A stretch of 64,000 bases of DNA from Malacoraja senta (GCA_038087875.1 CM075987.1:26600001-26664000); one strand, 5' to 3'. Numbered from the stretch's first letter, positions 1 through 34,174 are shown. The notes: a model not told the origin generated them from the letters alone. Numbers and translations: made by a program.

Positions 1-360
1 GTTGGAGACAGAGGAACACAGAGTGCTGGAGTAACTCAGTGGGTCAGGCAACATCTGTGGAGAACATGGACAGGTGACGTCTCGGTTTCGGGATCACTCT
101 TCAAACGCCAGACCCCGAAACGTCACCTATCCATGTTCTCCACAGATGCTGCCTGACCCGCTGAGTAACTCCAGCACTCTGTGAAACGTCACCTATCCAT
201 GTTCTCCACAGATGCCGCCTGACCCGCTGAGTTACTCCAGCACTCTGTGAAACGTCACCTATCCATGTTCTCCACAGATGCTGCCTGACCCGCTGAGTTA
301 CTCCAGCACTTTGTGTATAAACCAGTATCTGCAGTTCCTTGCTTCTACATTTGGAGGAAG
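1..360. mobile_element. Penelope-3'-end-derived non-autonomous repeat: inverted arm followed by three tandem 66-bp units
   Basis: 1-100 is the reverse complement of the unit GAAACGTCACCTATCCATGTTCTCCACAGATGCTGCCTGACCCGCTGAGTTACTCCAGCACT, which starts at 117, 183 and 249 (period 66). A closely related sequence forms the 3' terminus of the Penelope copies at 19040-19165 and 58342-58432. Confidence 0.75.
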
Positions 361-32040: not shown

Positions 32041-33595
32041 TCTCGCCATCTGCACTAGTCCCACCTGCCTGCGTTTGGTCCACATCCCTCCAAACCTGAC
32101 CTATCCATGTACCTGTCTACCTGTTTCTTAAACGTTGGGATAGTCCCAGCCTCAACTACCTCAGTGAATGGATGGGTGACATTTCAGGTCGAGACCCTTC
32201 TTCGTCAGATAAAATAAAGTGTCAAGAAGGGTCTCGACCTGAAACATCACCCATCCGTGCTCTCCGGAGATGCCGCCTGTCCCGCTGAGTTACTCTGGCT
32301 TTTTGTATCTGTCTTCAGTTTAAACCAGCAACTGCTGTTCCTTCCCACACAATTCTCTGACCCTAGTCCTTTATATATGACAAGAAAAGATTTCATTCCA
32401 GAATTTCACACAGAAGTGTGAAAACACACACCTCCGGATCCAGGGACAGTTTCGTCCAGCTGCCATCAGGCAACTGAACCATCCTACCACAACTAGAGAG
32501 AGGTCCTGAGCTACAACCTACCTCATTGGAGACCCTCGGACTATCCTTATTCGGATTTTATCTTACACAGTATAGCGTGGTGAATCTGTGGAATTCATTG
32601 CCACAGACGGATGTGAAGGTCAAGTCAATGGATATTTTTGAGATGGAGATTGACAGATTTTTGATGAGTACGGGTGACAGGGGTTATGGGGCAAAGAAAG
32701 GAGAATGAGGTTAGGAGGGAGAGATAGATCAGCCATGATTGAATGGCGGAGTTGACTTGATGGGCTGAATGGCATAATTCTGCTCCTAGAATTTATGAAC
32801 TTATGACCTTAACGAAGGTATACGGACAGCGAAACGAAGAGGATGGCTAGGCTTGGGGAGGGACGGAGGGAGAAGGAGAGGGAGAAACATTGACTGGTTA
32901 CCTTTTAACTAAACATTATTCCCTTTATCATGTCTCAGAACTCTATGAATGGCTCGATTATAACCATGTACAACCCTTCCCCTCTCCCCTATCTTTGCAC
33001 ACCCCCAATTCAGTCTGAAGAAGGGTCTTGGCCCGAAACGTCACCTATTCCTTCGCTCCATGGATGCTGCCTGACCTGCTGTGTTTCTCCAGCATTTTTG
33101 TATTCCTTTCCACTCGTCATTTTAATTTCATGTTTCATGTATATTGTGTTTTATGACTGTTGGGAGATCAATTTCCCTCCTGGGATAAATAAAGTTCTAT
33201 CGTATCGTATCGTACAGTCTTTGCGCTGACTGGTTAGCACCCAACAAAAAAGCTTTTCACTGTACTCCGCTACACGTGACAATCAACTAAACTGTCCTGC
33301 ATTTTCCATTAAAGAGCAGCCAGAAACATATAGTAGTTATGTCCCGAGTAGAAATTGATGCCTCAGCTATTTGCTTGGCTAAATAGGCTTTAAGTGTCAG
33401 TGGAGTTTAAAGCTAAAATCTTCTAAATGGGTTGACAGGATGAGCCAGTGACCTAAGTCGACACACATACACTGCATCTTATCTCTGTACTGACCACTCC
33501 CCTGAAATCAGTCTGAAGAAAGGGTCTCGACCCAAAACATCACCCATTCCTTCCCTCCAGAGATGCTGCCAGTCCCGCTGAGTTACTCCAGCACT

Positions 33596-33649
33596 GGGGG
33601 GGGAGGTTGCAACCTTCACGTGGTCCGCCCTGTTTCGACGAATGCAATC
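33596..33649 (+). ncRNA. HDV/CPEB3-like self-cleaving ribozyme (minimal P4)
   Basis: P1 G-run (33596-33603) / CCGCCCT (33625-33631); P2 GGTTGCA (33605-33611) / TGCAATC (33643-33649); P3 ACC / GGT; L3 TTCACGT; J4/2 CGAA (33639-33642). Confidence 0.75.
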
Positions 33650-33735
33650 AACCTGGCGTGCACAATCAAATAAGATCAAATAGAACAAGTTGTCCTCCAA
33701 CTTTAGGCTGTGCACGCCATACACAAGAAGAAGAA
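33596..33735 (+). mobile_element. 140-bp non-autonomous retroelement with HDV-like ribozyme head and (AAG)n tail
   Basis: 11-bp perfect TSD ACTCCAGCACT (33585-33595, 33736-33746); tail GCCATACACAAGAAGAAGAA; no pol III A/B boxes. Confidence 0.85.
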
Positions 33736-34174
33736 ACTCCAGCACTTTGTGTTTAAGACGATGACAGAGTTTGATACAACCATTGAAGGCAGAGGTTAGA
33801 GTGTTGTCAACTCAGCCGGGAAAAGACAGCAAAAGATAACCGCTGACCAGATACGCCCCGAGGAGCAGTCATCTCCCCTCAGGTTATTCATTCTGACTTC
33901 TTAGGAACCATCTCCTAGTTGGCAGCTCTGATGGGAATAGACCAAAGAATGACACATCCTGAGATGCAGCTGTCAATTTGAGTTGCAAATGTCACAGGCG
34001 TTGCAGACACTATTCAGAAGAGGCTGAGTTAGAATCATAGAGACACAGAGACACAGAGTGATACAGGGTGGAAACAGGCCCTTCAGCCCAACTTGCCCAC
34101 ACCAGCCAACTTGTCCCATCTACACTAGTCCCACCTGCCTGCGTTTGGTCCATATCCCTCCAAACCTGTCCTAT

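What the first reader, a model, noticed from the sequence alone, without database searches (positions are those of the whole stretch)
33596..33735. 140-bp mini-retroelement whose 5' end is a compact HDV/CPEB3-like ribozyme
Seen: a perfect 11-bp TSD (ACTCCAGCACT) delimits the element. Its first 54 nt read G8-A-GGTTGCA-ACC-TTCACGT-GGT-CCGCCCT-GT-TTCG-A-CGAA-TGCAATC. This satisfies the nested double pseudoknot: 7-bp P1 with a G.U pair at the cleavage site, 7-bp P2, 3-bp P3, L3, P4 reduced to a UUCG loop, and J4/2 CGAA carrying the catalytic C at 33639. The predicted cleavage site falls at, or one base from, the TSD boundary, as expected if self-cleavage defines the RNA 5' end. Established: HDV-like ribozymes head R2, RTE and ingi/L1Tc retrotransposons, and as I recall the mammalian CPEB3 ribozyme has the same L3 (UUCACGU) and J4/2 (CGAA). 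Inference: this is a promoterless, ribozyme-released SINE-like family mobilised by a Vingi LINE. P1 has one G-G mismatch in this copy (GGGGCGG would be perfect), from mutation or a homopolymer error.
Basis: partly seen in the sequence, partly recalled or inferred. Interest (0 to 1): 0.9.

Follow-up and report, generated by a model that had tools for sequence, protein, structure and literature searches.

The report
Ribozyme-headed 140-bp SINE-like retroelement family
This is one copy of a very abundant 140-base jumping element whose first 54 bases have the fold of a hepatitis-delta-type self-cutting RNA placed exactly at the element's start, so the RNA probably cuts itself free of host transcripts before being copied back into the genome.

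Summary
Window 33596-33735 is a 140-bp insertion between perfect 11-bp target-site duplications. It belongs to a family with at least 5,632 matches in the 1.94-Gb genome. Of 40 independent copies with duplications of 9 nt or more, 27 start at the first G, give or take the ambiguity of a G in the target.

The first 54 nt fit the HDV double-pseudoknot: P1 7 bp with G1.U, P2 7 bp, P3 3 bp, and C-N-A-A before the P2 3' strand. The family consensus fits better than this copy. Its P1 is GGGGUGG, which pairs fully, and its P2 is all Watson-Crick. P4 is missing. L3, J1/4 and J4/2 equal the Rfam CPEB3 consensus. The HDV-class models give the best-scoring hit in each of three Rfam scans, and are the only hits in one, but none reaches its gathering score.

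There is no covariation within the family, no RNA data and no cleavage assay.

Verdict: probably a real ribozyme-released non-autonomous retroelement. It is a new variant of the R2-SIDE/NARTc kind.

The parts
33585..33595 (+). 5' copy of the 11-bp target-site duplication (ACTCCAGCACT), part of an older and far more abundant host repeat
   Evidence: empty-site paralogue at window 281; loose ends
33596..33735 (+). whole 140-bp non-autonomous retroelement copy
33596..33602 (+). P1 5' strand (G1-G7). The predicted cleavage site is immediately 5' of 33596. This copy has G at 33600 where the family has T.
33603..33604 (+). J1/2 (G/A then A). The first base varies G/A between the two main subfamilies.
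33605..33611 (+). P2 5' strand (GGTTGCA here, GATTGCA in the consensus)
33612..33624 (+). P3 (ACC/GGT) enclosing L3 TTCACGT. C33617 pairs with G33632 as a one-pair P1.1.
33625..33631 (+). P1 3' strand CCGCCCT. T33631 makes the G1.U wobble.
33632..33638 (+). J1/4 G plus a 5-7-nt variable linker that stands in for P4
33639..33642 (+). J4/2 C-G-A-A. The putative catalytic C is at 33639. The second base is G or T in subfamilies.
33643..33649 (+). P2 3' strand TGCAATC (pseudoknot partner of 33605-33611)
33650..33724 (+). structured 3' module: an 11-bp stem (33654-33664 with 33709-33719) enclosing the hairpin 33687-33703. It is the presumed reverse-transcriptase recognition domain.
   Evidence: 86 nt, -23.9 kcal/mol, z -4.93, 0 of 200 shuffles as stable
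33725..33735 (+). (AAG/GAA)n tail
33736..33746 (+). 3' copy of the target-site duplication

Best explanation
A roughly 140-nt non-autonomous non-LTR retroelement (SINE-like, with no RNA-polymerase-III-type head) that carries a minimal, P4-less HDV-class self-cleaving ribozyme as its first 54 nt. Proposed cycle, with each step marked as shown or inferred:
1. Copies are transcribed passively inside host or read-through transcripts (inferred).
2. The ribozyme folds into P1/P2/P3/P1.1 and cuts immediately 5' of G1. This frees an RNA whose 5' end is the element's first base (the fold and the 5' ends are shown; cleavage is inferred).
3. The strongly structured 3' module plus the (GAA)n tail is used in trans by a LINE reverse transcriptase for target-primed reverse transcription (inferred; the partner is unidentified).
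4. Insertion gives 9-15-bp target-site duplications at T-rich|A sites and a sharp 5' junction at G1, sometimes with 1-5 extra bases (shown).

The window copy is a slightly damaged member, with a G-G clash in P1 and a G.U pair in P2.
For: Family and mobility:
- 40 of 40 scored genome hits are 96-100% identical over the full length, out of 1,488 first-look candidates.
- 5,632 matches to a J4/2-P2' pattern, and 1,923 exact matches to the 35-nt 5' half. The reversed-pattern controls gave 0 in both.
- Of 55 independent copies with a 5' anchor, 40 have duplications of 9-15 nt, mode 11.
- In those 40, the duplication abuts G1 in 16 and overlaps it by 1-2 ambiguous G in 11. It leaves 1-5 extra bases in 10, and 3 are outliers.
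- No conserved sequence lies upstream of G1.

Fold:
- Consensus P1 GGGGUGG/CCGCCCU has 7 of 7 pairs, and P2 GAUUGCA/UGCAAUC has 7 Watson-Crick pairs.
- P3 has 3 pairs, and the C22-G37 pair is kept in 31 of 31 distinct rows.
- Overall 97.7% of cells are paired, against 19-44% when partners are slid by 1-3 columns.
- C44 and A46 are invariant in 44 of 44 aligned copies.
- The nested minimum-free-energy fold of the 54-mer is exactly P1+P3.

Subfamily-level variable sites all fall where the fold tolerates change:
- J1/2 G/A.
- P2 A-U to G.U, in 6 of 31 distinct rows.
- The linker that replaces P4.
- J4/2 CGAA to CUAA: about 28 of the first 100 listed by my eye count, and 11-49% of depth in four other coded organisms.
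- P1 G32 to A, which turns the U.G wobble into U-A.

Rfam:
- RF00094 scores 19.7 bits on the window copy.
- RF00622 scores 12.9 and RF02682 14.4 bits on L012.
- On L061 the only three hits at E up to 10 are RF00622 (23.0 bits, E 1.4e-4), RF02682 (16.2) and RF00094 (14.1).
- Five of the six HDV-class alignments place P1, P3 and the catalytic C in the predicted register. The sixth, RF00622 on L061, agrees for P1, P3 and L3 but is mis-threaded from the P4 region on, so it does not place the catalytic C.
- None of these models scores P2, so the 7-bp P2 is independent support.
- L3 UUCACGU, CCCUGU and CGAAU are identical to the CPEB3 consensus while the three helices differ in sequence.

Other:
- No tRNA or other small-RNA head.
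- Precedent: R2 SIDEs have the same architecture (PMC3414825, abstract read). Minimal HDV-like ribozymes lacking P4 exist (PMC10879173, passage).
Against: - No Rfam family reaches its gathering score. The best sub-threshold scores are 12.9-23.0 bits against thresholds of 35-50. Part of the 23.0-bit CPEB3 score comes from a chance match of the upstream flank and a mis-threaded P4.
- There is no covariation inside the family. 0 pairs change on both sides, and 483 of 500 shuffles reach the observed covariation score. Copies are too alike, and post-insertion changes are neutral anyway.
- The nested folding energy of the 54-mer is no better than shuffles (z +0.92; 168 of 200 fold at least as well).
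- The relaxed descriptor is not rare in random sequence, at 6 starts per 1.536 Mb.
- P4 is absent and P1.1 is a single pair, so activity may be weak.
- A sharp 5' end alone could equally be a transcription start.
- No partner LINE shares the head or the tail.
- My copy sample is biased. L001-L030 are the best BLAST hits to this copy, and L031-L062 were fished with exact words from inside the element. Conservation figures are therefore inflated.
Confidence: 0.7

Rival explanations
1. The 5' pseudoknot is real but is not used for cleavage. It would serve as a protein-binding or stabilising 5' structure, or as an internal promoter at the DNA level (as Pr77 does in L1Tc). The sharp 5' end at G1 would then be a transcription start.
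For: - A defined 5' end fits a transcription start as well as a cleavage site.
- The ribozyme core lacks P4 and has a one-pair P1.1.
- Rfam scores are below threshold.
- L1Tc's first 77 nt are both promoter and ribozyme (PMC3383444, abstract start in the listing).
Against: - The catalytic-core letters that matter only for chemistry are all present: the G1.U wobble, C-N-A-A, and L3 identical to CPEB3. C44 is invariant in 44 of 44 copies.
- There is no A/B box, tRNA, 5S or 7SL similarity.
- One subfamily carries TTTT inside the head, which would terminate RNA polymerase III.
- This rival is not exclusive of cleavage.
Confidence: 0.15
2. The resemblance is chance. The head derives from some unrelated sequence, and the HDV-like pairing scheme is a coincidence found by an attentive reader.
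For: - The relaxed descriptor occurs about 4 times per Mb of random sequence.
- There is no covariation in the family.
- The fold has no energetic excess over shuffles.
Against: - The hit sits with its cleavage site at the first base of the element, a chance of about 1e-5 by my arithmetic.
- HDV-class families give the best-scoring Rfam hit in each of three scans and are the only hits in one, out of 4,227 families.
- 18 single-stranded core letters equal the CPEB3 consensus.
- There were 0 descriptor hits in about 0.5 Mb (both strands counted) of real flanking sequence.
Confidence: 0.08
3. One reading: the element is a short internally deleted derivative of, and is mobilised by, a Vingi/ingi-type LINE that carries the same ribozyme head and the same 3' end.
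For: - The ingi/L1Tc clade and its non-autonomous NARTc carry HDV-like ribozymes (PMC4035085 and PMC3383444, abstract starts in the listing).
- The modal 11-bp duplications are near the roughly 12 bp I recall for ingi. That figure is recalled and comes from no call.
Against: - Patterns that demand the head or the tail next to a non-SINE body returned 10, 8, 13, 1, 127, 14 and 5 hits.
- All the hits I inspected were SINE copies with indels, truncations or unique junctions. No recurrent longer element appeared.
- The one intact LINE I looked at is L1-type, with a poly(A) tail and no similarity to the SINE.
- These searches need exact words, and each exclusion passes a true LINE only about 30-56% of the time. 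A diverged or rare partner is therefore not excluded.
Confidence: 0.05

Closest known systems
R2 SIDEs and R2/R1 hybrid SIDEs of Drosophila (Eickbush & Eickbush 2012, PMC3414825; abstract read)
   Same: The architecture is the same: an HDV-like ribozyme at the very 5' end fused to a LINE-type 3' end. These elements have no coding capacity, propagate by target-primed reverse transcription, and get their 5' end from self-cleavage of a co-transcript.
   Different: SIDEs are rare, sit in rDNA target sites, and are plainly internal deletions of known R2/R1 parents with a full-size ribozyme. This family is dispersed, has at least 5,632 matches, has a 54-nt ribozyme without P4, and has no parent found.
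NARTc / SIDER elements with the Pr77/L1TcRz head in trypanosomatids (PMC3383444, PMC4035085; abstract starts in the listing)
   Same: These are abundant, dispersed non-autonomous elements that share an HDV-like ribozyme at their first bases with target-site-duplicated insertions.
   Different: They occur in protist hosts. Their 77-nt head doubles as a promoter, and the head is shared with the autonomous L1Tc/ingi. Here no autonomous element with the head was found, and the core letters resemble CPEB3.
Mammalian CPEB3 ribozyme (Rfam RF00622)
   Same: L3 UUCACGU, P1-3'/J1/4 CCCUGU and J4/2 CGAAU are identical. Both have a 7-bp P1 starting GGGG, a 3-bp P3 and a weak one-pair P1.1 (consensus printed).
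   Different: CPEB3 is a single-copy intronic element with a P4 helix. The scores here are 12.9-23.0 bits against a gathering score of 35, and the P1, P2 and P3 sequences differ. The SINE head works like CPEB3 but is not a member of that family.
Minimal HDV-like ribozymes (drz-Mtgn, theta ribozymes; PMC10879173, passage)
   Same: They have the same P4-less, roughly 50-60-nt double pseudoknot.
   Different: They are known from metagenomes and gut phages next to tRNA genes. The paper says the origin and function of most minimal variants are undetermined. Here the setting is a eukaryotic retroelement head.

Membership tests
HDV-like (delta-class) self-cleaving ribozymes | Nested double pseudoknot: P1 of about 7 bp, P2, a 3-bp P3 and P1.1, in the order P1-P2-P3-L3-P3'-P1'-J1/4-(P4)-J4/2-P2' | tested here: met
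   The descriptor hits this element. In the alignment 97.7% of cells are paired, against 19-44% when partners are slid. P4 is absent, as in minimal members.
HDV-like (delta-class) self-cleaving ribozymes | G1.U wobble closing P1 at the cleavage site, and a catalytic C in J4/2 followed by N-A-A | tested here: met
   G1.U is present in 30 of 31 distinct rows. C44 and A46 are invariant in 44 of 44 copies. The middle base is G or U.
HDV-like (delta-class) self-cleaving ribozymes | Score at or above Rfam gathering for RF00094, RF00622 or RF02682 | tested here: not met
   There were 0 hits at gathering. The best scores are 19.7 of 50, 23.0 of 35 and 16.2 of 44 bits. These models cannot score P2, and they penalise the missing P4.
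HDV-like (delta-class) self-cleaving ribozymes | Compensatory covariation in the helices | tested here: inconclusive
   0 pairs change on both sides in 31 distinct rows. Only one-sided, pair-keeping changes were seen. Between this head and the CPEB3 consensus all three helices differ while the core letters match.
HDV-like (delta-class) self-cleaving ribozymes | Site-specific self-cleavage giving a 5'-OH product | not testable with these tools
   This needs an in vitro transcription and cleavage assay or 5'-OH RNA mapping. No RNA run was listed.
Ribozyme-headed non-autonomous non-LTR retroelements (R2 SIDE / NARTc kind) | Ribozyme cleavage site coincides with the element's first base; insertions show target-primed reverse-transcription hallmarks | tested here: met
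   In 27 of 40 copies the duplication abuts G1 or overlaps it by 1-2 G. In 37 of 40 it lies within -5 to +2. Duplications are 9-15 nt and the tail is (GAA)n.
Ribozyme-headed non-autonomous non-LTR retroelements (R2 SIDE / NARTc kind) | Head and/or 3' end shared with an autonomous LINE in the same genome | tested here: inconclusive
   Searches found none.
Classical SINE (polymerase-III head from tRNA, 7SL or 5S) | 5' head homologous to a small RNA with an internal A/B-box promoter | tested here: not met
   ARAGORN found 0 genes. No tRNA, 5S, 7SL or snRNA hit appeared at E up to 10.
CPEB3 ribozyme family (RF00622) | Rfam gathering score; single-copy intronic locus with a P4 helix | tested here: not met
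   Scores are 12.9-23.0 bits against 35. The element is dispersed in thousands of copies. P4 is replaced by a 5-7-nt linker.

The most novel reading that the evidence does not exclude
The head of this retroelement is a true relative of the mammalian CPEB3 ribozyme: it has the same L3, J1/4 and J4/2 letters, while the helices differ in sequence yet stay complementary. CPEB3-type ribozymes would then be an old vertebrate retroelement module, and the 'mammal-only' intronic CPEB3 ribozyme would be an exapted retroelement head. The element would also be the smallest known self-releasing retroelement, a 54-nt ribozyme plus an 86-nt reverse-transcriptase handle, thriving without any parent LINE that shares its ends.
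Probability: 0.15. Interest if true: 0.85.

Novelty: new variant of a known kind. Interest (0 to 1): 0.62.

Why it matters
HDV-like ribozymes are known to head some LINEs and a few rare or protist non-autonomous derivatives. Here the same trick appears in a very compact form: a 54-nt, P4-less core in a 140-nt element. The family has multiplied to thousands of copies in a large animal-sized genome, and it is present in runs labelled as at least four other organisms.

If the cleavage is real, three things follow:
- Minimal HDV-like ribozymes, whose origin and function were called undetermined (PMC10879173), gain a natural eukaryotic role.
- It would show how a promoterless SINE can live off read-through transcription.
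- It offers a candidate evolutionary source for the CPEB3-type core.

It would also be a handy minimal cassette for studying ribozyme-defined 5' ends in retrotransposition.

Tried and rejected
**Partner LINE**
- I searched the own genome with patterns that use IUPAC 'not' letters to demand the ribozyme or the 3' end next to a non-SINE body.
- One search was mis-registered and became a copy count instead.
- Every hit I inspected was a SINE with indels, a 5' truncation or a unique junction.
- The three clustered hits on C5 are whole SINE copies inside a tandem array.
- A Pfam RVT_1 scan gave 159,857 first-look candidates, too many to sift, and its loci could not be cut out.
- The one intact LINE I fetched is L1-type with a poly(A) tail and no similarity to the SINE.
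- BLAST of the SINE against all held loci and the window found only further SINE copies.
- A scan for other (GAA)n 3' ends in about 260 kb found no LINE tail.

**RNA evidence**
- No RNA holder was listed.
- The four runs laid are contigs of uncertain kind, one of them probably DNA. They give no starts or ends.

**Other**
- Covariation within the family: none, as expected for near-identical copies.
- Nested-fold energy of the head is not informative.
- Host taxon: an Atlas look-up of the L1 ORF2 gave only 'Eukaryota, commonest Chordata (phylum known for 1)'.
- Earlier-findings look-ups gave nothing on this genome.
- Ruminski et al. 2011 is not held.
- Repbase and Dfam could not be consulted.

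Full report
**1. What is at the coordinates**

One search shows ACTCCAGCACT at 33585-33595 and again at 33736-33746. Between them are 140 bp that begin GGGGGGGGAGGTTGCAACC and end in CAAGAAGAAGAA.

The flanks belong to another, far more abundant repeat. Its depth is about ten times that of the element. An uninterrupted copy of that repeat stands at window 281. Contigs from other runs also read straight across the site (loose ends at 33595). The 140 bp are therefore a true insertion with an 11-bp target-site duplication.

**2. It is a family**

- A search of the window's own 1.94-Gb assembly gave 1,488 first-look candidates. All 40 scored were 96-100% identical over essentially the full 140 bp.
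- A pattern across the J4/2-P2' region matched 5,632 times.
- The exact 35-nt 5' half, with G/A allowed at two sites, matched 1,923 times.
- The reversed-pattern controls gave 0 in both searches.
- I held 64 copies in loci. Six are segmental or tandem duplicates and were dropped. Three lack the 5' anchor.
- Of the 55 independent copies left, 40 have target-site duplications of 9-15 nt, mode 11.
- Upstream flanks share nothing.
- Sites are T-rich just before the duplication, and the duplication starts with A in 25 of 40.
- Tails are (GAA)n.
- Contigs of four runs labelled as four other coded organisms from four studies also hold the element at 85-99% likeness. The family is therefore shared by several taxa. 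Their kind (RNA or DNA) is not on record, and one is probably DNA.

**3. The 5' end**

In the 40 copies with good duplications:
- The duplication abuts G1 in 16.
- It runs 1-2 G into the G-run in 11. About a quarter of targets would continue with G by chance, so these are ambiguous.
- It leaves 1-5 extra bases in 10.
- 3 are outliers.

The element's 5' end is thus sharply fixed at the first G of GGGGTGGG. That is the predicted cleavage site.

**4. The fold**

The family consensus reads, from tool output:

GGGGTGG-GA-GATTGCA-ACC-TTCACGT-GGT-CCGCCCT-G-TTTCGA-CGAA-TGCAATC

- P1 is 7 of 7 pairs, with G1.U and U5.G wobbles.
- P2 is 7 Watson-Crick pairs.
- P3 is 3 pairs.
- C22 pairs with G37 as a single-pair P1.1.

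On 44 aligned copies (31 distinct rows), 97.7% of pair cells are standard pairs, against 19-44% when the 3' partners are slid by 1-3 columns. C44 and A46 never vary. The nested minimum-free-energy fold of the 54-mer is exactly P1+P3. In the whole element the nested fold picks P2 instead, as expected for a pseudoknot.

The stretch between G37 and C44 varies in length and sequence between subfamilies: TTTCGA, TTTTCGA, TTTGA, TTCGA, TGCGA. There is therefore no conserved P4 or UUCG loop. This is a P4-less, minimal HDV-type core. Such minimal forms are known from metagenomes and phages (PMC10879173, passage).

**5. Comparison with curated models**

At gathering thresholds nothing in the window hits Rfam. 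In small permissive scans of three copies, the HDV-class families stand out among 4,227 families:

| Copy | Rfam family | Bits | E-value |
|---|---|---|---|
| Window copy | RF00094 | 19.7 | 0.7 |
| L012 | RF00622 (CPEB3) | 12.9 | 0.29 |
| L012 | RF02682 | 14.4 | 0.69 |
| L061 | RF00622 (CPEB3) | 23.0 | 1.4e-4 |
| L061 | RF02682 | 16.2 | 0.25 |
| L061 | RF00094 | 14.1 | 3 |

- On L061 these three were the only hits at E up to 10.
- On the window copy and on L012, 1 of 3 and 2 of 3 hits respectively were HDV-class. The others were weak, unrelated hits.
- Five of the six alignments use the predicted register for P1, P3 and the catalytic C. The 23.0-bit RF00622 alignment on L061 shares it for P1, P3 and L3 only.
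- These models carry no P2 and expect a P4. The 7-bp P2 is therefore independent support, and the low scores are partly explained.
- Part of the 23.0 bits comes from a chance flank match and a mis-threaded P4.
L3 UUCACGU, CCCUGU and CGAAU are identical to the element, while the P1, P2 and P3 sequences differ but stay complementary.

**6. Is it more than chance?**

- My relaxed descriptor finds only this element in both strands of the window.
- It finds 45 of 64 family copies and nothing else in 199 kb of loci.
- It finds 6 starts in 1.536 Mb of Markov-random sequence.
- A hit somewhere is therefore unremarkable. A hit whose cleavage site lies within a base of an independently defined retroelement terminus is about a 1e-5 event (my arithmetic). 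The consensus also meets much stricter criteria.

Evidence against or neutral:
- No compensatory change exists within the family. Copies are near-identical, post-insertion mutations are neutral, and my sample is biased, so this is uninformative rather than negative.
- The nested energy of the head is not unusual (z +0.92).

Every site that differs at subfamily level is one the fold tolerates: J1/2, A-U to G.U in P2, U.G to U-A in P1, the P4-replacing linker, and the N of C-N-A-A. With only two such sites lying in helices, this is weak support.

**7. The rest of the element**

Nucleotides 55-140 fold into an 11-bp stem (33654-33664 with 33709-33719) around a 6-7-bp hairpin. The fold energy is -23.9 kcal/mol, z is -4.93, and 0 of 200 shuffles are as stable. 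A (GAA)n tail follows. I take this as the handle for a LINE reverse transcriptase. That is inference.

**8. The partner**

- Patterns that demand head or tail beside a foreign body returned only SINE variants and singletons.
- An intact L1-type LINE exists, with ORF1 of 341 aa, ORF2 of 1,271 aa, a poly(A) tail and a 15-17-bp duplication. It shares nothing with the SINE.
- The T-rich|A target and the duplication length would suit an L1-like endonuclease. The (GAA)n tail and the structured 3' end suggest a stringent LINE instead.
- I cannot decide between these. Nothing speaks for Vingi.

**9. Known relatives and novelty**

- The architecture is that of R2 SIDEs (PMC3414825, abstract) and of NARTc/SIDER with the L1Tc ribozyme (PMC3383444 and PMC4035085, abstract starts in the listing).
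- Reviews list HDV-like ribozymes in R2, L1Tc and various animals, including lamprey (PMC8256844, passages).
- R2's conserved L3 region CCUCCUCGUGG (PMC5035012, passage) differs from CCUUCACGUGG here at three letters.
- Four full-text searches found no paper describing an HDV-like-headed SINE in fishes or other vertebrates.
- Repbase and Dfam were not available, and Ruminski et al. 2011 is not held. Prior description there cannot be excluded.
- I rate it a new variant of a known kind: a minimal P4-less core with CPEB3-type letters, 140 nt in all, thousands of dispersed copies, and no parent in sight.

**10. Verdict**

| Claim | Confidence |
|---|---|
| Retroelement family | about 0.97 |
| Genuine HDV-class fold at its head | about 0.85 |
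| Self-cleavage defines the 5' end in vivo | about 0.7 |

Interest is 0.62.

Noticed in passing
window 33520-33595 and 33736-33760; paralogue at window 281-324: The element sits inside another, much more abundant repeat (...GCTGAGTTACTCCAGCACTTTGTGT...). Its summed contig depth in four runs is about ten times that of the SINE. I recall this motif from skate and shark repeats, but that rests on no call.
   Followed up: partly
L063 (G000:C1:189424600-189432400, minus strand): An apparently intact L1-type LINE: ORF1 of 341 aa, ORF2 of 1,271 aa with endonuclease and RT, a poly(A) tail and a 15-17-bp target-site duplication. Many genome hits show the same 1,271-aa open frame, so this L1 family looks recently active.
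   Followed up: partly
L006-L011, L019 (contigs C522, C2222); L064 (C5:3616300-3624300): SINE copies with identical flanks recur every 17-22 kb on two contigs. Three copies sit 1.9-3.5 kb apart inside a tandem array of about 75-80% self-similarity. The element has been carried along by segmental or satellite amplification.
   Followed up: partly
L033 (C1:355370568-355373602, minus strand, about 1505-1562): A stub made of the 54-nt ribozyme followed by only about 19 unrelated bases, with AGCATCATA repeated on both sides. It is either a deletion or an aberrant insertion that kept just the head.
   Followed up: no
L030 (C10:25879040-25882179, about 1501): The duplicated target runs 6 bases into the element's GGGGTG start, and the downstream flank itself reads ...GGGGTGTGGG. 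This may be microhomology at the 5' junction.
   Followed up: no
window 33697: This copy has C where about 100% of contig depth in four other runs, and most genome copies, have A. The change breaks the innermost pair of the 3' hairpin.
   Followed up: yes
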